Of a DNA stretch of 20,268 nt, positions 1 through 19,510 are shown piece by piece. Below the pieces are notes generated by a model. That model did not search any database. It worked only from the letters and a program-made list of their open reading frames with translations, and had not been told where the DNA came from. Numbering within the stretch: the first letter of the stretch is position 1; every line of letters begins with the position of its first letter. The DNA is from Chiloscyllium plagiosum (Eukaryota): positions 2,468,046 to 2,488,313 of the forward strand of contig NC_057718.1 in the NCBI RefSeq assembly GCF_004010195.1. The letters are read 5' to 3'. The position numbers and the translations under genes were made by a program.

Positions 1-179
1 CCTAAGGCATCCTGAATCACTCAATGCGAGAGCACAGAAACACCACGCTCAGACCATCAACAATTACACTGATCGAATTCTTCATGAGAACTATGGAGTA
101 TGATCCCACATCCCCTACTCTTCAAGCTATTATCTAAACCATCGTGAACTCAACACAACAGACCGTTTCATGAATCTTT

Positions 180-475
180 AAGTGCTGTAATTCCAATGTT
201 CTCCTCATATGTTATCTTTTAAAGTGCAAGCATTCCTTTCAGGACAAATGAAGCAGCCAATCTGTGCACAGAAAGGTCCCGTGAATTGCAATGAGACAAA
301 TGCAGAGTTTAGTTCTTATTACAGACATTGGTCAGGGGTGAAAATTGACCAGGTCATCATCAATACTGGGACCTCTTACCCCACCTCTCTCAGCACTACC
401 CAGGAAATGTCAATACGTGTTCCGTGTTCAAGTAAAATTAGAATCCATGAATTTCTGACTTATTGGGAATAGAGA
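180..475 (-). mobile_element. Old DeuSINE/SacSINE1-like SINE remnant
   Basis: GCAGCCAATCTGTGCACAGAAAGGTCCC...GCAATGAGACAAATG...TTGGTCAGGGGTGAAAATTGACCAGG resembles the reverse complement of the DeuSINE body and tail as recalled. Highly diverged. Confidence 0.4.
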
Positions 476-2231
476 TACTTGAGAAATTATTTTCACTGTA
501 GGTGATTAAGGATTGCTCTGTGATATCTTCATGGTTATCATGGCTTAAAATGGAACATCACTGCCTTTGGCTGGTCTGAAAACAGCAAAGACCCAAATTT
601 ATCATAGGCATTATCATAAACATTTCTGCACATCATGTGGTTTCATCACAACCCATCACTGAAAGAATTAAAATAAATTTCCCATAAAAGGCAAATCAGT
701 TTCAGCTAAGTAGATCCTCACAGACACCCGATGCGCTGACTGCTGTTGCCGTTCTTTAATTTTCTATTATTGTGGACTTTCATTACAGTCAAGTCAGGGC
801 TCACCTGAAGTGATGCGTTTCATTTAACACTGCCCTGTCACACAGTGGGAACTCAATTCAAATGGAATGGAAGTTCCCTTCCCGAGAGATTAGAGGGCTT
901 CAGATTTGCTCTTTACAGAGTTCTAGGTCAACGCCAACTCATTCTTGTGTTGCTTCAGATGTCTCGTCCGTGTCGCTTTATTGATGGGAAAGAACTTGTA
1001 CTGTATTTAAAGCAAAACTATATTTAAAGACATGGGACTCTGGTCCTGCACTGTCCACTTGGTGCTGGATACAGGAGTTTTAAAAAGGGGAAAATTGTAA
1101 CTTTCCAGTGAAACTGCAGATATTTCACTGGATAGGGACTCAATAGGATCTGCTGGAACCCTGTTGTGACGCCCCCTCAATATTATTCTACTTTAGCTTC
1201 AGTTGATGTGCAGGTATCCAGCCAGTTTGTGTCTCACCCCATGACAGTGATTAACTAATCCTATTTGGGTCAAAGACAGAAATGTTTGAATCTCTTCATT
1301 GGTTCATTGAATAGTCAACTCCTTTTCTGCACTAAAGCACCACAGATAGAAATCTGGTTTCACAAGAAGCTAGGGCATCATACAGACTACTGTGTAGCCT
1401 GTAACCAGTCTTTCCACAAGAAAAATTGTATCGTCTGCGGTAATGAACAGACATTTCAGCAAGTATAAAAGCTGACCTACATCAGGGGCTCAAGAAAGCA
1501 GTCAGAGCGCATGATGAGTAAAACAAAATCTTCCACGATTCCATTACCTTGGGTCCCAGTTTCTACTTGCAACTCCTACTTCTGAGAAGAGAAAGTTTCC
1601 CATCCTTGGGCTTACACATGAGGTCACACCGAGGGCAAAACCAATCACCATTCTATAATACTCACTCAATCTTACTTCAAGACTTTCTACTGCCAAACTC
1701 TTTCACTGTGACACTATCATTCCCAAACAAGAATATCCCACCACTGTCTTGGCCACCTATTCTATATTCTACCCATCCAGAATGCCATTGTTCTGATGGT
1801 ATCGTACAGCACCACCTGAGCAATCATTGTATTGGTCGCTAACTCGTGTAATCTCCAGCCTCCCCAATTTCTCAAATGCAATATTCTCATGCTAGGGCGT
1901 TAGCCCTCCCAGATTCACTGAATTTACACAGACCCTGGCTATTTGATCCTTCATTCCATTATTTGTGGTCATGTCTCAACTGGAATCTTCTTTCGGTATT
2001 CCTTGCACACCATTTTTTCAATCCCAGCCTCTTTAAACAATTCGTGAGCCCAATCTCTCTCATTGACATTGCTACTGTTTGTTCGATTTTACCTCCACCA
2101 AGTTCTTCAGCGTATTTTAGGAAACACAAGCTGTGAAGCTGCCCTATAATTCACAATACAATGCCAATTTCCCAGCAAGAAAAGGCTGGGCGAGGGTAAG
2201 AAAACCCAAGAAGTGGGTCTGATACAGGAAT

Positions 2232-2366
2232 GAGGAGAAAGTGAGGTCTGCAGATGCTGGAGATCAAAGTTGAAACTTTATTGCTGGAACAGCACAGCAG
2301 GTCAGGCAGCATCCAGGGAACAGGAGATTCGACGTTTCGGGCACAGGCCCTTCTTCAGGAATCCAT
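2232..2366 (-). mobile_element. Short non-autonomous retroelement (Penelope-like terminal-repeat type) with intact hammerhead motif and 14-bp TSD
   Basis: Perfect direct repeat TCTGATACAGGAAT at 2218-2231 and 2367-2380. A near-identical second copy lies at 10269-10419. Confidence 0.85.
2326..2363 (-). ncRNA. Minimal type-I hammerhead ribozyme motif
   Basis: Minus strand reads GATTC-CTGAAGA-A-GGGC-CTGT-GCCC-GAAA-C-GTC-GAATC: stem I GATTC/GAATC, core CUGAAGA, stem II GGGC/GCCC, GAAA, palindromic ACGT in place of stem III, GUC cleavage triplet. Confidence 0.8.
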
Positions 2367-3639
2367 TCTGATACAGGAATCTATTCTCAGATGTGTTTGA
2401 CACCACAGCTGCCTTTACTGTACTACTCTTTACCCAGCACCTTGCAACTACATAAACTTCATGTCCACAAAGTCCTTAATTAGTACTTTTCAATATACAG
2501 GGTCAATTGTAACTCCTTGTCATTATAAGCTAAGCCAGTTCTGTGCTCTTTAAATACAGTATCTGAAGGCAGGGAGTGTACAATCACTTCACCTCACTAT
2601 TAGCCAGAGAGCCCATGCAAAAGAGTTTTCTCAAAAGTTGTGGTGGATCAGAACTACAGAGGTCTTTTATGTGGTTTCATTAGAGAGAATCACTTTTCAT
2701 TAATAGAGGCACAACAGGATATTCTCAGAACTCACGTAAGTTCAGGCTGAACCGTACATTTTGTGATTACACAACATGATGAAATAGGAACATTTGTGAG
2801 CTCATGCATTTTCCTCAATAAACACAGAAACCAGTGTGTACAATTCTAGAAATTCACTTCTCGGTAAATAGATTTAACAAGTTCGGTCATTACCATAAGT
2901 GGTTAGCACTGGTGTCTCATAATACCAGAGATTCCAGATGATTGTTTCAATTTCCAAACTAATGCGACAAAATACATCACAACCATCAAAGAGCTGCAGG
3001 CCACTCAAACCACCAAGTCCATGATTTTCAGACTGTACACAACCTGCATGGTGGAAATCCCATCAATTCAATTATATTGCAAGGATGAATTTGCACAAAT
3101 CTTGTCCTGTGCCTATTTGGAAATGAACCAAAGCAGCAAAGACCCATTGAACTCCATATTCTTGAGAAAGGAAAGGCAATCACCTCTCCACTCATCATTA
3201 CAGCTCTGAATTCCATTTTCCCTACACAGTATTACCCCAGCTCCTTTTATTGACGTGTTATTCGAAACATCATCAATTGCTTACATTTGGGTAAGGAATA
3301 ATTTGCAGTCTCTGATCAAATGTCCTCTCGAATGTACCAAATAAAGCTCAGTTCAATGCCATCTCAATGCAAGAACCTCCGCAGTGCCTTAACAGCTTAG
3401 AATCTTCAAAACGTCGCTTGGCTAAATCGCTCTCGCTATTCCAAGGACAGTCTTACCATGTGAAAAGACCAGAATTAATTCTGGTGAATCCTGAAATCCC
3501 TTCAGATACAAGTTGATAGTCGAACACTTTGATAACTTCCATACTTCTTCAAATTTCACAAAATCTTCTTGTTGGTTCAGAAACCTGTCATTACAAACAG
3601 CATTCTCCCTCCGCTGCAGTCCCCAAAATTAAATTTTAG

Positions 3640-4085
3640 ATCATAAAAATGTGGAAGTAGGCCACTCAGCCCATCGAGTCTGCTTTCACTAGTTCCTTGT
3701 TGGAAAAAAAGGCTTCCTTAGATCAGTGTTCACGAGAACATATGAATGAGGAGCAGGAGTAGACCATCTGGCCCCTCCAGTTTCTGCCATCACACAAGAT
3801 CATGGATGATCTGATTACTCACTTCACTTGACCTTTCATTTTGCACTTAGCGAGGATCTACCTACAGTAAGGAAATTCAAAAAACTCTGTCCTTGAGGAA
3901 CAGAGTTCCAAACACACACAATCTTCAAAAAAAAACTCATCTTTTGCAGGTAACTCTCTAGTTCCAGCTTCCCCACCAAGAGGAAGCAGCCCTTTCACAA
4001 GACCGCTCAGGATTTTATTGTTTCAAGTAAATCCTCCCAACAAAATTCAGATTTCCAAGAGTTTTAATCCATCCATGTCTACTGG
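3640..4085 (-). mobile_element. Degraded CR1-like LINE 3' ends (at least two nested pieces)
   Basis: GAAGTAGGCCACTCAGCCCATCGAGTCTGCT and GGAGCAGGAGTAGACCATCTGGCCCCTCCAG...AAGATCATGGATGATCTG are reverse complements of CR1 3' UTR motifs. Boundaries approximate. Confidence 0.6.
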
Positions 4086-4335
4086 ATAGGCACACAGAGC
4101 TGAACGGTCAATGTATTGATTAAGTTACACTACATTACTCTCCAGTACATACCAAATCAACTGTAAACATCAATTCTGCCATCTTGTGGCCGATCAGAAA
4201 ATGCCAACAGTCTATACATCTGGAACTGTTTACACCTTCTGTTCTATAATTGGATGGTGTGGGCTGTTAGCTGGGAAGCTTTTTAAACTGCTGCTTACAT
4301 GACACTGTCTGCTGATAATCTCCACAGGAACTTAC

Positions 4336-4462
4336 CTGTGTCTCTTGGCTCCATGTAAAAGGTTGTCATGTTTTTCATAAATCTGGAGCTCCTGCTCCTC
4401 TTCGTGAATGGCATCAGGATCCTCTGTTGCCAGAATATCAACTGCACTGCCCAGAGGTAAGG
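4336..4462 (-). CDS. MCM3: MCM3 coding exon (exon 11 equivalent, 127 bp)
   Basis: Acceptor tttttttatttag, donor CAG|gtaagt. Translates (A)[41 protein letters not shown](R). No exon-12-like sequence (KYIHVAK) was found in 1-4335, so the gene continues past the window start. Confidence 0.96.
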
Positions 4463-4639
4463 CTAAATAAAAAAATGGCAAACATCAGATTTGGGATCAG
4501 CAGTGTTGAATTAAGAGATTGAAGTCATTAACCCTCCAATTCCATTTCTCAAACAAAAATGATATGACCACTGTCAGCTACTGATGACTGGGCAAGTAAT
4601 AAAAAGCAATGAAACTCTCTTTGAAGTTGCAGTACAGGG

Positions 4640-4955
4640 GACAGGGGTGGCAATTTCACTGATCTGTAATCCAGAGGTCCTGGACAATTTTTGGAGGATA
4701 GAAGTTTAAATCCCATCTCGACACCTTTATTTAAACGAGATTAATAAATCTGGAATGTAAAGCAAGACTCAGCGATGGTGACCATAAAGCCCATTGGTGA
4801 TTGTTGTAAGAACTAATTGCAGCTGTCCTTAGTCAGTCTCGCCCACATGTAACTCCAAACCCAGAGCACATATGGTTGACACTCGCTTCAAGGGAAATTA
4901 AGGATGGGTAACCAATGCTGCTCTTGCCAGTGATATCCACATTCCTTGAAAAACG
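4640..4955 (+). mobile_element. tRNA-derived SINE (common shark family), diverged
   Basis: GTAATCCAGAG...GTTTAAATCCCA head, AATAAATCTGGAAT, ATGGTGACCAT, CACATGTAACTCCAAACCC, tail ATGCTGCTCTTGCCAGTGATATCCACATTCCTTGA. Reverse-oriented relatives lie at 6462-6760, 9775-9950 and 15598-15880. Confidence 0.6.
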
Positions 4956-5194
4956 TGCCAGCAATAAAGGCCGACATAGAATTTAATTTTCTAAATGCTT
5001 GCGGTACCTGCTTATTAACTGTAGTTCATGTACAGGGTCCATAAAACCCCTCTCAACATCAACATTAAATATTTTGCAACCTAAAAAATAGTTTTTATTC
5101 TTCTTAGTAAAATAAAGTCTCAGATTCCCCCACATTATACTCCATCGGCCACCGTCTTTCCTCCTCATTTCTCCACGTCACTTTCCCACATAGC

Positions 5195-5430
5195 TCTGGG
5201 AGGAGTTAGTGCAGTTGGCTGGTTTGCAATGCAGAGTGATGCCAACAGTATGGTTTCAATTCCCGCATCAGTCGAGTTACCATGAAGGACTGTCCTTCTC
5301 AAACTCTCCCTTCAACTGAAGCGTGGTGGCCCTCAGGTTAAACCCCAACCAGTTGCCTGTCTGTCTCTCTGTCTCTAATGAAAGCAGCTGCCCTGCTCTG
5401 GTAAGACTATGGTAACTTTAACTTTACCTT
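5195..5430 (+). mobile_element. tRNA-derived SINE, second family
   Basis: A-box-like TAGTGCAGTTGG, B-box-like GGTTTCAATTCC, body GTGGCCCTCAGGTTAAACC, CT-rich stretch, tail GACTATGGTAACTTTAACTTTACC. Confidence 0.55.
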
Positions 5431-5786
5431 ACCCACCTAGCTTTCTATTGTTGGAAAACATGCATGTATTACCCTCAATTAAATCATAAATTACAAATAG
5501 CCCACTATTAAAATGCTGCCAAGTTGAAAATGACAACTTTCTTTAAGCCTTTAACCAATTCCTCAGTCATGCACATCAACTACCCAAGCCCTTAGATTCT
5601 GCAATGTTTTGCTTGACGGTTAATTAAATGCCTCCTGAAAATCCAAATATATTAAATCCAGTGGGTTCCCCTTAATCTTACACAGTCAATTTTAATATTA
5701 AAAAAATCTGTGGGTCAACCCTAACTCTCTTTTCAAAAACACCACGTCACATTAATGGTATTTTTTGTTTAAATGGCTTATTACTA

Positions 5787-5975
<189 letters not shown>

Positions 5976-6461
5976 CTAGCAGGGAAAGGGGAGGCAAAGA
6001 AACAGACATCAAATCAACCGAGAGAAACAAACAAGAATGTATGTCTGCGACATCCACCACATGACAGAGACTTGGCGGAACCGACTAGCCCCATTCCAGA
6101 AGAGTCTCAGCCAACGTATGGCTCTCTGCATTGACTTCTTATTAGAGCTGAAGGTACAGAAGGGATTACTGCCCCAAGCAACCACTGTCTGCCCTTTACA
6201 GTGGAATTAATGAATGGCAGCAATCCAGTTTGAGTTGGCTGGCTCTGGAACTGATTTATAATTTGAAGATTTTAGCACTGCCATTTCAAAACACAATAAC
6301 AAAGATAGCTTAGAAACCGCAAACTACAACAAAACATTTCACTCAGCATAACTCAGAGGAGTTCACAAAAGAACATTCAGTTCTGGTGAAAGGTCATCAA
6401 CCTGAAACGTTATCTCAGATTCTCCCTCCACCAAATCTGCCAGACTCGCTGAATACTTCCT

Positions 6462-6760
6462 TTATTCACACCCAGGATGTGGGAGTCAATGGCTGGGCCA
6501 GCATTATTTTACCACCCCTAGTTGCCCAGTGAGCAGTTAGTAGTCCACATGTAGGTGAGACATCAGATTTCCTTCCTTACAGGGAATTAATAAACCAGAT
6601 GGTTTTTACAGTGATCGATAATAGTGATGTGGTTGCCATTAGACTGGTTTTCATTAATTTCCAGCTTTAAAATTTACCAGCTGCCATGATAAGACGTGAA
6701 CCCATGCCCTTGGAGCATGAGCCAGGATTCTGGAGTACCAGCCCAGTAACATCCCCACTT
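6462..6760 (-). mobile_element. tRNA-derived SINE (same family as 4640-4955)
   Basis: GGATGTGGGAGTCAATGGCTGGGCCAGCATT...CACATGTAGG...TGGTTGCCATTAGACT...GGATTCTGGAGTACCAGCCCAGTAACAT is the reverse complement of that family. Confidence 0.6.
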
Positions 6761-7094
6761 TTCTCCTGCCTCCACTCAGTAGTTTCTGGCTTTATTATAG
6801 ATCTCCAGCATCCACATTATATTAGACTCATATGTTACAGATGGGGTTCTTTGGGAATAGAGTTAAAGCACTGTCTCAGAGGTCTGATCCATTGGGAGTA
6901 CAGCACTCCTGCAACCCTAATTTCCACTGCATGCCTTCAGAGGTCCAATGTGTAGAAGGGATTTCCAGATGCAGATATCCACACAGCAATGAGCCAATCG
7001 GGGGAGTGGAACCTCTCAGCAGCTCTGGGGCCACACAGCTCAAAGGAAATGTTGGTAAAGCAGAGTACAGAAACATGATTTAGAACATAAATCA

Positions 7095-7532
<438 letters not shown>

Positions 7533-8074
7533 TTACCAGCAGTCACCAGTGAAAACCTTCACATCTCGGCAGTAATGCACCTTGATGGGGTCATATTGGG
7601 AGAAAGACTTCAGCTTTGGCAGTACAACTGATTAATCCAGTGCATGCAGTGGTTTCCTTATTTTTGCTAAATATTCTGTGGAGTTCTTATCGAATCAGAA
7701 GCCAGTTAAGACTGATCCACCACTTCCCCACAGAGCACTGTTTCAGTACTGGACGGAAGCACCCATCACCACAGACCCAACTGTATGAGTCAAGGGAAAG
7801 ACACACAGCTGACCACTGTTTCTCTATGGCACGTGACTTCTCCAATTCCTACGTCACAGAAATCCAAATGGAAAGCAATTGCATCCAGAACCACTCTTAG
7901 ACAGGATGAAAACAACATGCATTGCTAGTCTACATTGGGACATAGACTTGTCCCAGGTTAAATCAACACAGAAGGGCTCTTGTAATGCAGTGGCACTGTT
8001 CCTTTCTCTGGACCACAAGGCCAGAGTTCAAGTCACACTTGCCAGAGATTTGAGGTAACATCTCTAAACAGGGG

Positions 8075-8300
8075 CAAATCTTTCTCCTAGAGGGTGGTTT
8101 GTGTGTGGAATGAACTTCCTGAGCAAGTGGTGGTTGGACAACATTTTAAAAGACATTTGGATTGATACATGAATAGGAAAGGTTTGGAGGCATGTGGGCC
8201 ACTAGCAGGCAGAACCAACCAGTTTAGTTTGGGATTCTGTTTGGCTTGGACTGGTTGGACCAAAAGGTCTGTTTTCTTGCTGTATGAGTCTTGACTCTAT
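8075..8300 (+). mobile_element. HER1/CR1-type LINE 3' end inserted in a short tRNA-like SINE (7974-8330)
   Basis: AGAGGGTGGTTTGTGTGTGGAATGAACTTCCTGAG...TTGGACCAAAAGGTCTGTTTTCTTGCTGTATGAGTCTTGACTCTAT, homologous to 19285-19510. Preceded by a tRNA-like head with GAGTTCAAGTC B-box. Confidence 0.7.
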
Positions 8301-8548
8301 AATAGACTGATGAGAAAATAACTTTAAAAAGCAACATGTTTGGAATAGTGAATACAAGGTGCTGAGATATATTAGCCCATTACCCCTCCGTGTGGCAGCA
8401 ACAAGTACTGCAAGCAGTATTATGGAGCATGCCTATGAATATCTAAAGCCCTAGCTCAATACTCTCACTATTTATCAGACATCAGACCAAAACCAGACTC
8501 CAATCTTAAATATGATGTCCTGTGGGAGAAATGTAAAATCTTTACAAA

Positions 8549-8741
8549 TACAGACAGTTCCCAAGTTGCAAATGGGTTCTGTTCTGGAGTCCATTCACAA
8601 GTTGATTTGTGCACAAATCAGAGCACATGCAGGATAATGTAAAGCTGCTGTTCATAAATTCTGGATTTTTAAAGAATAAATTGAAAGCGCATATGGGACT
8701 GCATTTGTAAACGCGAGCATTCGTAAATTAGGGCCCCTGCA
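8549..8741. mobile_element. Probable degenerate Tc1/mariner (Tigger-like) MITE
   Basis: Left TA-CAGACAGTTCCCAAGTTGCAAATG and right CATTCGTAAATTAGGGCCCCTG-CA form imperfect terminal inverted repeats about 190 bp apart. Confidence 0.4.
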
Positions 8742-8859
8742 TTGAGAATTGGTCTTGAAAAACGTAAACATATTTCTTTGTCAAGAGGAAGCCGTGGCGC
8801 CATTACAACAATACCTCATGACATTTCACACTTGTTCTAGTGCGGGATCATGAGCAAGT

Positions 8860-9095
8860 AACATCAGTAGGTCACTCAGTCCTTCAAGCTGTTCCATCAT
8901 TCAATAAGGTCGCGGCTGATGTGCCTTTGACCTCTACATTCCTGCGTATCCCTGATAACCTTTGACCCCTGGGTAATCAAGAATCTACCTCTCTCGTCCA
9001 TAGAAATATTTAAAGATTCTGCACCCAAGGTCTTTAGAGAAAGGGAATTTCAAAGACACTTAACTGTGAGAAAAAAAACATTTCCTCATCTCAAC
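8860..9095 (-). mobile_element. Degraded CR1-like LINE 3' end
   Basis: AGTAGGTCACTCAGTCCTTCAAGCTGTTCCATCATTCAATAAGGTCGCGGCTGAT...AATCAAGAATCTACC...GGGAATTTCAAAGAC...TTTCCTCATCTC. Same type as 3735-4000. Confidence 0.6.
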
Positions 9096-9390: not shown

Positions 9391-9424
9391 TCAATTCCGG
9401 AAAGCACACACTAAGGGCAAAGCC

Positions 9425-9950
9425 AGCCCCTTGCTACCTTCGGGAAGGTGGCGATGAGCTGCCTTACTGAACTGCTGCTGTCATTCCTGTAGTTAGACGC
9501 ACAATGCCCTTAGGGTTTTGACCCAGCGGCATTGAAGGAACAGCAATATACTTCCAAGTCAGGATGGCGAATGGCTTGGAGGGGAACTTGCAGGGTGTGG
9601 TGTTCCCACGCATCTGCTGCCCATGTCCTTCGAGATGAAAGTGGTCATGGACTTGAAAGGTGCTGCCTGAGGAGCCTTTGTGAATTGTCACAGTGCATCC
9701 TATAGATAGTGCACACTGTTGTTAAGGGAAGTAAATGTTAAAGATGTTGAATGAGGTATCAAGCAAACAGGCCACTTTATCCTAGATGCTTTTTGATAAT
9801 CAATAGTGCCATGATTGCCATTAACCCAGCTCTTTATTCAAGATTCTGATGGAATTAAACGTTCAACATGCGCCAAGGCAGGATTTGAACTGATGTCTTT
9901 AGAGAATTAGCCTCAGTTTCTGGATTACTAACCCACCCACATTTCTACTG
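9425..9950 (-). mobile_element. Degraded LINE 3' region plus SINE head remnant
   Basis: GAAGGTGGCGATGAGCTGCCTT...TTTTGACCCAGCGGCATTGAAGGAACAGCAATATACTTCCAAGTCAGGATGG...GTGTTCCCACGCATCTGCTGCCC. Shares sequence with 18665-18785. 9865-9950 is a reverse tRNA-like head (GGATTTGAAC...CTGGATTACTA). Confidence 0.55.
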
Positions 9951-10268
9951 CCTCCTCATGACATTCATGCCCCGGAAATGAGGTGACTGACCTACAACAA
10001 CCACAACCATCATCGTTTATGTCAGGTACAACTCCAGCCAGCAGTTTTCCTCATCATTCTCACTGATTCCAATTGTTCCAAAATATCCTTGACACCATAA
10101 TCAATTGCTACCTTGATGCGAAGGGCAGCCATCTCCCCTCACCTTGGGAGTTCAGCTCTCTTGTTCATATTTAGACAAAGGCTGTGACATTACCACTACA
10201 GCACTGCTTCCTCCAGTATGGTGTTGGAGCTGCAGTCATTGAGGAAAGTGGACAGAGTATTCCATCAG

Positions 10269-10419
10269 GAGGAGAAAGTGAGGTCTGCAGACGCTGGAGA
10301 TCAAAGCTGAAACTTTGATCAAAGTGATTCCTGAAGAAGGGCATGTGCCCGAAACGTCGAATCTTCTGTTCCCTAGATGCTGCCTGACCTGCTGTGCTGT
10401 TCCAGCAATAAAGTTTCAG
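10269..10419. mobile_element. Second copy of the same short retroelement, with internal 5' inversion and 15-16 bp TSD
   Basis: Direct repeat CAGAGTATTCCATCAG at 10253-10268 and 10420-10435. 10269-10316 is collinear with 2232-2279, while 10326-10420 is the reverse complement of the rest of the first copy. Confidence 0.85.
10326..10363 (+). ncRNA. Minimal type-I hammerhead ribozyme motif
   Basis: GATTC-CTGAAGA-A-GGGC-ATGT-GCCC-GAAA-C-GTC-GAATC. Differs from the 2326-2363 copy only at one stem II loop position. Confidence 0.8.
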
Positions 10420-10532
10420 CAGAGTATTCCATCAGACTTGACCTGTACTGTCCAGGAGGATATTCAGATTTAGCCATGAATGTTTTCATCAGGAACCCAT
10501 CCACAGCATACAGACTGAAGAATAGAACTTTA

Positions 10533-11181: not shown

Positions 11182-11729
11182 CTACAGAAAACAGCTTCGT
11201 TACACAGTTTCCAGCTCTTTAAAAAATGTGTATTCAGGTTTAATTGCTGCCCTCCTTCTTTCCCATTATTCACAGCACTAGTTGCGACTTGGCCAGACAA
11301 TCCCATGGGGTGGAAGTCATCACATTTCTTTATCCCTGTGGCTCTCCAATCAATCAATGAACCATTTAGGAGCTGAAACAAGTGAATAATCTCCCTGTTA
11401 TCTCACAGAGGCGATGGTGATTGACACATTAGAAACTCTGAATTAGGTTGATAGTCTGGAATTCCACAATCTCTGATGTTAACATTAACTCTGGGACACA
11501 GAAAAAGATGTATAGCAAAGAGCTAAGTAGTTAGAAAAAGGAGCAAAGTGATGAGCAAAAGCATTTTCTGAGTGGCTGGAAATCATAGCACGAGTGAGGT
11601 GGAGTCACGTTCAATCAGAGCATTCAAGAGGGAATGAGCGTTTTAAAAAGAAATGATGTACTGGGTTTTGGGGAAATGGTGAAAGAATGTCAACAGATGA
11701 TGATGCTCATTTGGACAGTCAGCAGAAGA

Positions 11730-12207
11730 TACATAACATATAGGAAGGATATGGAAGCTTTGGAAAGAGTTCAGAGGTGGTTTACTAGGGTGTTGCCTGG
11801 AATGGAAGGAAGGTCTTACGAGGAAAGGCTGTGGGAACTGAGGCTGTTTTCATTGGAAAGAAGAAGGTTGAGAGGTGACTTAATGGAGATGTATAAGACA
11901 ATTAGAGGGTTAGATAGGGTGGACATTTAGAGAATTTTTCCTTGGATGGTGATGGCTAACATGAGGGGACATAGCTTTGAATTGAAGAGAGACAGATTTA
12001 GGACAGATATCAGGGTTGTTTCTTTACTCAGAGAGAAGTAGGGGTGTGGAACGGCCTGCCTGCAACAGTAGTAGACTCGCCGACGTTAAAGGCATTTAAA
12101 TGGACATTGGGAATGGAATAATAATGGAACCATGTAGGTTAGATGAGCATCAGAATAATTTCACAGGTCGGCACAACAACGAGGGCTGAAGGGCCTGCAA
12201 TGTTCTA
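11730..12207 (+). mobile_element. CR1-clade LINE 3' fragment (ORF2 C-terminus and 3' UTR)
   Basis: Translation YRKDMEALERVQRWFTRVLPGMEGRSYEERLWELRLFSLERRRLRGDLMEMYKTIRGLDRVD is the typical CR1 ORF2 C-terminus. It is followed by a premature stop and the GAGGGCTGAAGGGCCTG tail. Confidence 0.9.
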
Positions 12208-14551: not shown

Positions 14552-14789
14552 GGTCACGTAATTTTTTCTCTTATCACCTTCCACCTACTCAGCTCAGCAG
14601 CTAGGCCTTTTATGACTCAGACAGAATGGGTCAGTGGAGCTGCTGTCAAGCCCATTCTTGCTGATGGACACTGACGTCACCACATGAAGTACATTCTTGT
14701 GTCTTTGCCACCCTCAGGTACACCATTCAAGTTGTGGCGAACATACTGGGAGGACAACTGCATCTGATCTCCATGTCACATTACAGGTG

Positions 14790-15337
14790 ATCACCATTGC
14801 ACTACACACACACACACGGACACAAGTACACACAGACACCCACCCTTACAGACACACACACACACTCCCATACATGCACCCCCCCACTGACTTAAGACAC
14901 TCTGCACTTACTACACACACACACACAACCCCCACCCCTGACAGACACACACACACAGACAGACAAAGACCCACATGCACACATATATTTTGTGGGGTGA
15001 ATTTGTACTTGCAGAGTTACATTGCACTTTGCTCAAAAACTGCATGAATGCAACTTTCAAAAAGAAAGGGTTTTGTGATTTACACATGAAAGAAGTGAAA
15101 TTATCACTGTATTCTAACAGATGAAAGGCTTAACAGACAAACAATTTTTCAATGTATAATTTCAGTTACATCACACTGCAAATTTTTGCTATAAATTCTG
15201 TGTTACGATCGAGCCCTCCACAATCACCTGATGAAGGAGCGTCGCTCCAAAAGCTTCCAATTAAACCTATTAGACTATAACCTGGTGTTGTGTGATTTTT
15301 AACTTTGTACACCCCAGTCCAACACCGGCATCTCCAT
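14790..15337 (+). mobile_element. Penelope-like element terminal fragment with CA-rich tract and degenerate hammerhead
   Basis: CA-rich 14803-14985, then an AT-rich body, CAC-CTGATGA-A-GGAGC-GTC-GCTCC-AAAA-GCT at 15225-15255, and tail ATTAAACCT..GACTATAACCTGGTGTTGTGTGATTTTTAACTTTGTACACCCCAGTCCAACACCGG shared with 18844-19113. Left boundary approximate. Confidence 0.65.
14803..14985. repeat. Interrupted (CA)n / CAGA low-complexity tract
   Basis: Several (CA)5-7 runs with CAGA and C-rich spacers. Confidence 0.85.
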
Positions 15338-19117: not shown

Positions 19118-19510
19118 GAAGGCTGAGGAGTGACCTTTATAGAGGTTTACAAAATTATGAGGGACATGGATAGGATAAATAAACAAAGTCTTTTCCCTGG
19201 GGTCAGGGAGTCCAGAACTAGAGGGCATAGGTTTAGGGTGAGAGGAAAGATATAAAAGAGACCTAAGGGGCAACTTTTTCACGCAGAGGGTGGTATGTGT
19301 ATGGAATAAGCTGCCACAGGATGTGGTGGAGGCTGGTACAATTACAACATTTAAGAGGCATTTGGATGGGTATATGAATAGGAAGGGTTTGGAGGGATGT
19401 GGGCCGGGTGCGGGCAAGTGGGACTAGATTGGGTTGGGATATCTGGTCAACATGGATGGGTTGGACTGAAGGGTCTGTTTCCATGCTGTACATCTCTGAC
19501 TCTGACTCTA
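19118..19510 (+). mobile_element. HER1/CR1-type LINE 3' end
   Basis: AGGCTGAGGAGTGACCTT-ATAGAGGTTTACAAAATTATGAGGG (RLRGDLIEVYKIMRG-like), AGAACTAGAGGGCATAGGTTTA, TTCACGCAGAGGGTGGTA, tail TTGGACTGAAGGGTCTGTTTCCATGCTGTACATCTCTGACTCTGACTCTA. Confidence 0.88.

What the first reader, a model, noticed from the sequence alone, without database searches (positions are those of the whole stretch)
2218..2380. Intact minimal hammerhead ribozyme on the MCM3 pre-mRNA strand, delivered by a young 135-bp retroelement
Seen: minus-strand GATTC-CTGAAGA-A-GGGC(CTGT)GCCC-GAAA-C-GTC-GAATC, with all core hammerhead positions present, a 5-bp stem I, a 4-bp stem II and a palindromic ACGT where stem III should be. 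It lies in an insertion with a perfect 14-bp TSD and no coding capacity, and an AATAAA follows within the element. Established: Penelope-like elements and retrozymes carry minimal type-I hammerheads with a palindromic stem III that cleave as dimers. Inference: this is a recently mobile, non-autonomous ribozyme-bearing element, and this copy is transcribed in sense within intron 11 of an essential replication gene, where it could cleave if paired with another copy's RNA.
Basis: partly seen in the sequence, partly recalled or inferred. Interest (0 to 1): 0.8.

Follow-up and report, generated by a model that had tools for sequence, protein, structure and literature searches.

The report
Penelope retroelement end-piece with minimal hammerhead
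A complete small hammerhead self-cutting RNA motif does lie in an MCM3 intron, but it is one of more than 100,000 copies left by Penelope-like jumping genes in this genome, a known kind of element that is probably inert at this spot.

Summary
Window 2232-2366 (minus strand) is a 135-bp insertion with a perfect 14-bp target-site duplication. It starts with a complete minimal type-I hammerhead: 6-bp helix I, CUGAAGA, one unpaired A, 4-bp helix II, GAAA, palindromic ACGU, and cleavage after C at 2331/2330. It lies in sense in an MCM3 intron.

It is not special. The insert is the terminal unit (pseudo-LTR plus 37-nt "tail") of a young Penelope-like element (PLE). Longer copies in the same genome carry reverse-transcriptase and GIY-YIG endonuclease fragments just upstream of the same unit. 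The core pattern occurs 118,554 times in this 3.56-Gb genome (32 for a reversed control). The exact young-family 36-mer occurs 11,888 times. A second copy lies 8 kb away in the same gene.

Every feature, including the extra base after CUGANGA, matches the min-HHR class of Cervera and de la Pena (2014), which cleaves poorly in vitro and only as a dimer. Helix II shows one compensated lineage (23-fold excess). Helix I shows no covariation: 84% of typed copies carry a U.U mismatch.

A lone intronic copy has no helix III partner, and cleavage of MCM3 pre-mRNA is unsupported. The scan had already reported this element type in other windows of this genome.

The parts
2218..2231 (.). Target-site duplication, copy on the 3' side of the element (TCTGATACAGGAAT on the plus strand)
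   Evidence: 14 nt, 100% identical to 2367-2380. It abuts the element end ...CTCCTC.
2232..2366 (-). 135-bp insertion: a solo terminal unit (pseudo-LTR with tail) of a young Penelope-like element family
   Evidence: 12 other genomic places at 100% over 132-135 nt; the same unit follows the GIY-YIG ORF end and a ~110-nt 3'UTR in longer copies.
2325..2364 (-). Minimal type-I hammerhead motif. Helix I is 2364-2359 with 2330-2325. The rest is CUGAAGA 2358-2352, unpaired A 2351, helix II 2350-2347/2342-2339 with loop CUGU, GAAA 2338-2335, palindrome ACGU 2335-2332 and C17 at 2331. The predicted scissile bond is 2331/2330.
   Evidence: (0 of 300 shuffles give any hit).
2277..2282 (-). AATAAA hexamer inside the element. 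It is absent from the older subfamily, which has AACACA here.
   Evidence: No poly(A) tail follows in any copy examined, so use as a polyadenylation signal is not shown.
2232..2268 (-). Optional 37-nt 'tail'. Many family copies end at about 2271-2269 instead.
   Evidence: of 19 distinct N7=A copies, 11 end at unit position ~97-101, 7 end at 135 and 1 could not be classified. Inverted arms also end at position 96-104. This matches the 30-40 bp PLE tail (PMC8557442, PMC11167929).
2367..2380 (.). Target-site duplication, copy on the 5' side of the element
10269..10419 (-). Second insertion of a sister subfamily (loop AUGU). The last ~44 nt of the unit lie in minus orientation. They are joined to an inverted arm of unit positions 5-99, so its hammerhead (10326-10363) is on the plus strand, antisense to MCM3.
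   Evidence: 16-nt TSD CAGAGTATTCCATCAG at 10253-10268 and 10420-10435.
4335..4484 (-). Open frame holding the last MCM3 coding exon seen upstream of the element (...[13 protein letters not shown]...[10 protein letters not shown]...). Exon borders were not mapped.
   Evidence: The next exon (...MRKYIHVAKIVKPVLT...) is in L103 at about 9400-9560(-), which gives an intron of roughly 15 kb.

Best explanation
The insert is a short, dead-on-arrival copy of the terminal unit of a recently active Penelope-like element (PLE). Shown: the same 131-nt unit, from ATTCC to CTCCTC, ends longer copies that carry RT and GIY-YIG endonuclease fragments and a ~110-nt 3'UTR. Family copies show the PLE signatures: partial tandems, inverted 5' arms, an optional 37-nt tail and variable TSDs. 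The unit opens with a min-HHR of the published PLE type. Inferred mechanism: the PLE RNA starts at the A of ATTCC, where tcATTCC fits an initiator motif and TTTTAT lies at -32 to -27 in the source element's 3'UTR/pseudo-LTR. The PLE enzyme nicks the target and begins reverse transcription internally at one of two sites, about +99 or +135. When it uses the site in the upstream pseudo-LTR, a 97-135-nt copy results. Here that copy landed in MCM3 intron 11 in sense. A lone copy lacks the source element's upstream sequence, so it cannot transpose again. It also has no partner for helix III, so it should not cleave. I expect no effect on MCM3.
For: Identity and youth. The TSD is perfect. Twelve other places match at 100% and seven more at 98-99%. 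The exact 36-mer has 11,888 copies. PLE parentage. L047 shows a GIY-YIG C-terminal ORF, then the 3'UTR, then the unit, with an inverted unit at its truncated 5' end. L052 and L058 show RT fragments with YIDD. L057 shows the GIY-YIG N-terminal part. In Pfam, GIY-YIG PF01541 scores 23.2 bits against a cut-off of 22.6 (E=8.5e-5), and RVT_1 scores 18.3 bits, below its cut-off of 29.6 (E=0.0021). The other 3 of 5 fragments gave nothing. PLE insertion signatures. In a position-ordered sample of 19 distinct copies, 9 have an inverted 5' arm, 3 run on into the PLE 3'UTR and 7 start within about 4 nt of ATTCC. Eleven lack the tail and 7 have it. Of the first 100 exact copies, 24 sit in head-to-head pairs less than 300 nt apart. 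Tandems with 224-nt spacing occur. Hammerhead class. The core pattern has 118,554 matches against 32 for the reversed control. An unpaired base after A9, a G10.1-C11.1 pair and a palindromic 15.2/16.2 are exactly the features listed in PMC4209133 (read). Between families the differences in the motif fall at N7, loop II and 1.3. A compensated helix II pair, GAGC/GCUC, occurs 378 times against 16.4 expected from the singles (1,333 and 1,077) and the wild type (87,506). Fold. Helix I and II pair probabilities are at least 0.96 (0.78 for the terminal G.U) in the full unit and at least 0.97 (0.43) with 150 nt of intron on each side.
Against: No cleavage, transcript end or start site was observed. 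The only raw RNA run laid gave 0 reads, so it is no test. The initiator/TATA reading is pattern-matching from recalled consensus motifs. Copies retrieved with the finding's own sequence begin with an extra TGG: 8 of 8 and 20 of 20. The PLE-internal junctions (gctc/cctc before ATTCC) lack this TGG, and I cannot fully explain it. The unbiased sample shows it in 0 of 7 solo copies, so that retrieval was biased, but this particular copy does carry it. Evidence that the hammerhead is under selection is weak. The non-ascertained hammerhead positions are no better conserved than the next 58 nt (about 74% each, window copy against 12 copies of the N7=U family). Helix I position 3 is U.U in 68,100 copies and U-A in 12,997, with the 5' strand unchanged. 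The compensated helix II lineage is a single event. Rfam models do not recognise the motif. The RT assignment rests on sub-threshold Pfam scores plus motifs read by eye, and on the older subfamily. Many longer young copies are interrupted by runs of N.
Confidence: 0.8

Rival explanations
1. The 135-nt unit is an independent non-autonomous retroposon (SINE-like or retrozyme-like) with its own master copies. It would borrow the PLE enzyme in trans through the shared 3' end, rather than being a by-product of autonomous PLE transcripts.
For: There is a constant extra TGG at the 5' end of this copy and of all 28 copies retrieved with it. This TGG lengthens helix I by G-C and G.U and is absent from PLE-internal junctions. 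Copy number is very high and length is discrete. The 2026 preprint 10.64898/2026.07.22.740005 (abstract and Results part 1 read) derives non-LTR retrozymes from PLE pseudo-LTRs.
Against: In the position-ordered sample, 0 of 7 solo copies carry TGG, and 5' ends scatter within a few nt of ATTCC. Three of 20 older copies continue upstream into a partial unit joined at the internal TGGAT pentamer, which points to template switching rather than a master. No tRNA, 7SL or 5S-like head was found. This copy is not in a tandem array.
Confidence: 0.2
2. The hammerhead-shaped sequence is kept in the PLE family for a non-catalytic reason, such as binding of the PLE protein, a promoter or start-site context, or template pairing. 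Under this reading it does not self-cleave in vivo in any copy.
For: The adjoining 58 nt are just as conserved as the motif. Helix I is mismatched in 84% of typed copies. In vitro activity of min-HHRs is low (PMC4209133). In the Anolis PLE, hammerhead mutants did not affect insertion in vitro, cleavage needed the protein, and no RNA-seq reads ended at the cut site (PMC11167929, passages read). PLE clades without hammerheads proliferate well (PMC8557442, passages read).
Against: All catalytic-core positions are intact across families whose N7 and loop II differ. One helix II pair changed by a compensated double substitution and then amplified. The youngest families have a perfect helix I.
Confidence: 0.3
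3. One reading: the sense-strand copy pairs with another copy's RNA through the ACGU palindrome and cleaves MCM3 pre-mRNA.
For: Orientation is sense. Helices I and II are predicted to form within the intron context. There are 11,888 identical potential partners.
Against: The double-hammerhead dimer evaluates at -23.1 kcal/mol against -24.2 for two monomers, and helix III contributes nothing. Motif density is about one per 30 kb, so many genes must carry sense copies. Published min-HHRs cleave weakly even in cis dimers (PMC4209133). No read evidence was obtainable.
Confidence: 0.03
4. The motif is a chance resemblance.
For: The fold z-score is only -1.57. There is no Rfam match.
Against: None of 300 shuffles gave any descriptor hit. 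The core pattern has 118,554 matches against 32 for the reversed control. The motif sits in a PLE terminal unit.
Confidence: 0.01

Closest known systems
Minimal hammerheads (min-HHR) in the pseudo-LTRs of metazoan Penelope-like elements (Cervera and de la Pena 2014, PMC4209133; whole text parts 1-2 read)
   Same: Both are type-I motifs without a helix III hairpin. Both have palindromic 15.2/16.2, one unpaired nucleotide between A9 and G10.1, a G10.1-C11.1 pair and a short helix I without a defined loop 1. In both cases thousands of mostly solitary copies are spread over the genome, pairs occur on opposite strands 100-700 bp apart, and the motif lies in the terminal repeat of an RT plus GIY-YIG element.
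   Different: Helix II here is 4 bp, against 7-8 bp in the Schistosoma families described. The copy number of about 118,000 is far above the 4,000-9,000 reported for coelacanth and Xenopus. This host lineage is not among those named in the parts I read.
Canonical PLE insertion units: pseudo-LTR, adjacent inverted 5'-truncated copy and 30-40 bp tail (Craig et al. 2021, PMC8557442, passages read)
   Same: There is strong 5' truncation and there are partial tandems. Inverted 5' arms occur in 9 of 19 sampled copies. The tail is an optional 37 nt. Young copies break the assembly into runs of N.
   Different: Most copies here are cut down to the pseudo-LTR alone, with the 5' end at the first hammerhead nucleotide.
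Poseidon PLE of Anolis carolinensis, PAc (PMC11167929, abstract and passages read)
   Same: There are two alternative 3' ends about 36 nt apart, as expected from two internal reverse-transcription start sites. Both DNA strands are used, which fits the head-to-head copies. A hammerhead is present.
   Different: In PAc the ORF starts inside the hammerhead. Here the hammerhead lies after the ORF and 3'UTR, 97-135 nt before the unit's end. No biochemistry exists for this family.
Non-LTR retrozymes of animals (preprint 10.64898/2026.07.22.740005, abstract and Results part 1 read)
   Same: They are short non-coding hammerhead-bearing units related to PLE pseudo-LTRs. Monomers are dispersed, and many lie in introns.
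   Different: Retrozymes are defined by tandem arrays that give circular RNAs. This copy is solitary. Tandems in the family (224-nt spacing) are chimaeras of the unit with PLE 5' sequence.
Viroid hammerheads with an extra nucleotide between A9 and G10.1 (De la Pena and Flores 2001, known to me only through its citation in PMC4209133 and from recall)
   Same: An extra unpaired base sits at the same core position.
   Different: Those hammerheads have a stable helix III and loop-loop contacts.

Membership tests
Hammerhead ribozyme, catalytic core | C3 U4 G5 A6 N7 G8 A9 ... G12 A13 A14 A15.1 ... U16.1 H17 in the right order | tested here: met
   CUGAAGA ... GAAA-C-G-U-C, with all positions present and H17 = C.
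Hammerhead ribozyme, canonical (Rfam Hammerhead_1 and relatives) | Three helices including a helix III hairpin, with a score above the family threshold | tested here: not met
   no hammerhead family at gathering score, nor at E<=10. Helix III is only the 4-nt palindrome ACGU with no loop.
Hammerhead ribozyme | Mg2+-dependent self-cleavage 3' of H17 | not testable with these tools
   The read search gave no usable RNA data.
PLE min-HHR (Cervera and de la Pena 2014) | No helix III or loop 3, with palindromic 15.2-16.2 | tested here: met
   A15.1-C-G-U16.1.
PLE min-HHR | One unpaired nucleotide between A9 and G10.1, and a G10.1-C11.1 pair | tested here: met
   A at 2351, G 2350 pairing with C 2339. 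GGGC..GCCC with A after the box is present in 87,506 of 118,554 core matches.
PLE min-HHR | Located in the terminal repeat of an element encoding RT and a GIY-YIG endonuclease | tested here: met
   Searches show this for longer family copies. GIY-YIG is above the Pfam cut-off. RT is below the cut-off but has a YIDD motif. This copy itself is a solo unit.
PLE min-HHR | Families within a genome show covariation in the helices | tested here: inconclusive
   Helix II has one compensated lineage, 378 observed against 16.4 expected. Helix I position 1.3 is A, U or C opposite an unchanged U; 68,100 copies are mismatched and 12,997 are paired.
PLE insertion unit | TSD of variable length, 5' truncation, inverted 5' arms, partial tandems and an optional 30-40 bp tail | tested here: met
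Non-LTR retrozyme | Head-to-tail tandem array of hammerhead units giving circular RNA | tested here: not met
   This copy is solitary. Circular RNA is not testable here.
SINE | Head with a pol III promoter derived from tRNA, 7SL or 5S | tested here: not met
   no such Rfam family at E<=10 in 2150-2450.

The most novel reading that the evidence does not exclude
About 12,000 identical young copies exist, and many must lie in sense inside introns. Nascent transcripts could then form intermolecular double hammerheads, with helix I and the ACGU helix swapped between two RNAs, and cut host pre-mRNAs. For MCM3 the cut would fall at window 2331/2330. A recent PLE burst would then act as a genome-wide modifier of transcripts. 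A second, more sober reading that the evidence also leaves open concerns the PLE template RNA. The hammerhead would sit at its exact capped 5' end. Most insertions would then be pseudo-LTR-only copies, because reverse transcription starts at the first of two copies of its internal start site.
Probability: 0.03. Interest if true: 0.65.

Novelty: new member of a known kind. Interest (0 to 1): 0.15.

Why it matters
There is little consequence for MCM3. The value lies in the family. It is a very recently active PLE lineage in a large vertebrate genome, so insertions like this one are likely to be polymorphic markers. The genome also offers a natural mutant series for the open question of what PLE hammerheads do. 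Helix I position 1.3 is A in the youngest families (perfect helix), U in the most abundant ones and C in an old one. One lineage has a compensated helix II pair. The clustering of copy 5' ends at the first hammerhead nucleotide gives a testable idea about where PLE RNA starts and why most insertions are pseudo-LTR-only.

Tried and rejected
1. Rfam at gathering score and at E<=10 gave no hammerhead family. The three weak matches (IS009, TCL6_1, snoZ119) are chance.

2. A motif scan for downstream MCM3 exons inside window 1-5800 found nothing. They lie beyond the window start.

3. The sequencing-run search listed no RNA holder.

4. The raw single-cell RNA run X20 gave 0 laid reads in a 6% sample, so it is no test. 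Start, end, strand and level of any RNA therefore remain unknown.

5. Looking for an uninterrupted full-length young element failed. Loci around the 5' coding region and the 3'UTR are internally deleted, chimaeric, interrupted by other repeats or broken by runs of N. I did not try to piece one together.

6. Pfam found nothing in the putative N-terminal ORF (L014), in the C-terminal GIY-YIG fragment of L047, or in a second L052 fragment.

7. The five-sequence hammerhead alignment misaligned the most divergent motif. I did not build a covariance model and used exact pattern counts instead.

8. I first thought the constant 5' TGG defined the unit. The unbiased sample showed this was an artefact of retrieving copies with the finding's own sequence.

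9. A look-up of earlier scan notes by sequence found nothing. Look-ups by words and by place did find notes.

I corrected and resent them.
Full report
**What is there.** On the minus strand, window 2380-2218 reads as follows. First comes a 14-nt repeat. Then comes a 135-nt insert beginning A-TGGATTC-CTGAAGA-A-GGGC-CTGT-GCCC-GAAA-CGTC-GAATCT and ending ...AATAAA...CTCCTC. Then the same 14-nt repeat follows. One search confirms the direct repeat (2218-2231 and 2367-2380, 100%).

In hammerhead numbering:
- Helix I is 2364-2359 paired with 2330-2325: five Watson-Crick pairs and a terminal G.U.
- The 5' box is 2358-2352.
- One unpaired A is at 2351.
- Helix II is GGGC/GCCC around loop CUGU.
- GAAA is 2338-2335.
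- A15.1-C-G-U16.1 is the palindrome ACGU.

**Chance.** A descriptor of my own found two hits in the 20,268-base window and none in 300 dinucleotide-preserving shuffles. The 45-nt segment has helices I and II as its minimum-energy fold (-12.1 kcal/mol; z = -1.57, 9 of 200 shuffles as good). The pairs keep probabilities of at least 0.96 in the whole unit and at least 0.97 with 150 nt of intron on each side. The terminal G.U falls to 0.78 and 0.43. Rfam does not see the motif. This is expected, because its hammerhead models require a helix III hairpin.

**Host gene.** The minus strand of the window carries MCM3. Window 13630-13881 matches MCM3 residues 178-259 of solved structures at E=1.5e-45, with other MCM paralogues at E=1e-12 or worse. 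I recognised ten coding exons upstream of the element. The last lies in the frame 4335-4484. No later exon is in the window. In the 20 kb before the window start, the remaining exons follow on the same strand down to the C-terminal one (L103 2562-2768, MCM3 residues 743-808, E=1.5e-21). So the element lies in sense in an intron of about 15 kb. 'Intron 11' fits if one further first exon exists, which I did not see.

**What the insert is.** In the window's own 3.56-Gb assembly the 135-nt query had 392 first-look candidates, of which 40 were scored. Twelve other places matched at 100% over 132-135 nt, and seven more at 98-99%. An older group is at about 92%. It differs in loop II (UUAU), in helix I (GAUUC after the cut site) and in lacking AATAAA.

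One locus (L005) has the unit three times within an ~820-bp insertion, together with sequence that translates like the start of a retroelement ORF. Searching with that sequence (2,876 candidates) and with the stretch that precedes the unit in such copies gave several kinds of copy:
- In some, the unit follows a ~110-nt untranslated stretch and the C-terminal part of a GIY-YIG endonuclease ORF (L047).
- Others carry reverse-transcriptase fragments with a YIDD motif (L052, L058). Pfam RVT_1 scores 18.3 bits, below its cut-off of 29.6.
- Another carries the GIY-YIG N-terminal part (L057). Pfam PF01541 scores 23.2 bits against a cut-off of 22.6.
- Three of the five fragments scanned gave no Pfam match.

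RT plus a C-terminal GIY-YIG endonuclease is the hallmark of Penelope-like elements.

The family also shows the structural habits described for PLEs (PMC8557442, passages read). I took a position-ordered sample of motif copies from the first 0.7 Mb of contig 1: 30 loci, 35 motif instances, and 19 distinct copies of the N7=A families.
- Nine have an inverted arm abutting the 5' end.
- Three run on into the PLE 3'UTR.
- Seven start within about 4 nt of ATTCC next to unrelated DNA.
- Eleven end at unit position ~97-101, seven end at position 135, and one could not be classified.

The two 3' ends are about 36 nt apart. This equals the 30-40 bp PLE 'tail' and the two internal reverse-transcription start sites shown for the Anolis element (PMC11167929). 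The inverted arms also end at position 96-104. Of the first 100 exact young-family copies, 24 form head-to-head pairs less than 300 nt apart. The finding's copy is a solo unit with a tail.

**Abundance.** The pattern CTGANGA-N13-GAAACGTC occurs 118,554 times, and the same pattern read backwards occurs 32 times. That is about one per 30 kb, or 0.67 expected per window of this size. The young family's exact 36-mer occurs 11,888 times. A second copy lies in the same gene at 10269-10419. It has a 16-nt TSD and is a short minus-strand 3' piece joined to an inverted arm, so its hammerhead is antisense to MCM3.

In favour:
- Families differ at N7 (A, U, some G or C), at all four loop II positions (CUGU, UUAU, UCAU, UAAU, AUGU, UUUU, AUUU) and at 1.3.
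- The bulged A and GGGC/GCCC are the majority form, in 87,506 of 118,554 core matches.
- The double change GAGC/GCUC, which turns a G-C pair into A-U, occurs 378 times. The single changes occur 1,333 and 1,077 times. Independence predicts 16.4 doubles, so the excess is 23-fold.
- Nearly all doubles share one haplotype. This is therefore one old lineage that kept amplifying after a compensated change: one event, not many.

Against:
- I compared the window copy with 12 copies of the N7=U family. The 23 hammerhead positions not fixed by my search pattern are about 74% identical, and so are the next 58 nt. There is no excess conservation.
- Helix I does not covary. Position 1.3 is A in the two youngest families, U in the most abundant ones and C in the old compensated lineage. 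It always lies opposite an unchanged U.
- Genome-wide, 68,100 copies have the U.U mismatch and 12,997 have the U-A pair.

**Would this copy cut?** It has no helix III of its own. The double-hammerhead dimer (helix I and ACGU swapped between two molecules) evaluates at -23.1 kcal/mol. Two monomers give -24.2, and the dimer without the ACGU pairs gives -23.4. So nothing in the nearest-neighbour model favours a trans dimer.

The literature points the same way. Single min-HHRs did not cleave, and dimers and trimers cleaved weakly (PMC4209133). In the Anolis PLE, cleavage needed the element's protein, did not matter for insertion in vitro, and left no RNA-seq ends (PMC11167929).

I could get no RNA evidence. 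No RNA holder was listed, and the raw RNA run gave no reads.

**Mechanism proposed (inferred).** Copy 5' ends, and the junctions of chimaeric copies, cluster at the A of ATTCC. In source-element context that A sits in tcATTCC, with TTTTAT 27-32 nt upstream, in both subfamilies. From recalled consensus motifs this looks like an initiator with a weak TATA-like box. Penelope's start site is known to lie in the pseudo-LTR (PMC8557442).

If RNA starts there, every transcript begins with the hammerhead and meets a reverse-transcription start site 97-135 nt later. That would explain why pseudo-LTR-only copies dominate. Head-to-head copies then follow from priming on both cut DNA strands.

One point is unexplained. 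This copy and all those retrieved with it carry an extra TGG before ATTCC. That TGG equals the start of an internal TGGAT pentamer. Three of 20 older copies continue upstream into a partial unit joined at that pentamer. This suggests template switching.

**Comparison and novelty.** Every defining feature of the PLE min-HHR class is met: no helix III, palindromic 15.2/16.2, a base between A9 and G10.1, a G10.1-C11.1 pair, location in a PLE terminal repeat, and massive dispersed occurrence. The Rfam-type canonical hammerhead definition is not met, and activity is untested. The element is not a retrozyme in the strict sense, because it is not in a tandem array, and it is not a SINE.

Eight earlier notes of this scan on other windows of the same genome reached the same classification. 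I had written my reading down before seeing them and tested it independently. This is a new member of a known kind, and interest is low.

Literature searching consisted of one full-text search for 'Penelope-like' plus 'hammerhead' (37 papers). I read four of them, to the extent stated with each citation above. Supplements were not consulted, so the species lists in those supplements may already include this lineage.

Noticed in passing
window 10253-10435: A second insertion of a sister subfamily (loop AUGU) lies in another MCM3 intron, with a 16-nt TSD. It is a 44-nt 3' piece in minus orientation joined to an inverted arm of unit positions 5-99. In the pre-mRNA its arm is complementary to about 95 nt of the finding's copy, 8 kb away.
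   Followed up: partly
L005 3025-3076 (minus strand); L012 239-286 (plus strand): Two other hammerhead-like motifs appear here. The first is CTGAGGA-G-GTC...GAC-GAAAC-GTC with only 2 bp of helix I. The second is CTGAAGA-A-AGGT...ACCT-GAAA-TGTT with helix I GAGTT/AACTC. In the second, both helices differ from the main family by paired changes, but homology was not established.
   Followed up: no
window 2231-2377, laid against runs X2, X4 and X8: Contigs of runs labelled as three other organisms (B, C, D) hold the element at 95-100% identity but none of the flanking intron. There were 1, 673 and 4,588 contigs respectively. In X2 the contig runs on into the same PLE 3'UTR. The family is therefore shared with other species. 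Whether those runs are RNA is only a guess.
   Followed up: partly
L026, L031, L037; unit positions 51-55: Solo copies retrieved with the finding's sequence start with TGG. This TGG is not in the source element's junction, and it matches an internal TGGAT. Three of 20 older copies carry an upstream partial unit joined exactly there. This looks like template switching at a 5-nt microhomology.
   Followed up: partly
L014 about 722-1000 (minus strand); L018: The putative N-terminal ORF of the young PLE contains a tandem array encoding repeats of PPPRSVTTPNPA-like peptides (6 or more copies in L014, 14 or more in another frame in L018). It is partly lost in assembly gaps.
   Followed up: no
window 14688-15129: A GT/CA-rich low-complexity tract lies in an MCM3 intron. 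It shows up as long His/Thr- or Cys/Val-rich open frames.
   Followed up: no
window 11598-12138 and 19127-19427; L104 3250-4350: Fragments of LINE-type retrotransposon ORF2 and its conserved 3' end (…VWNxLP… motif) lie in the MCM3 introns and upstream region. Several are in both orientations.
   Followed up: no
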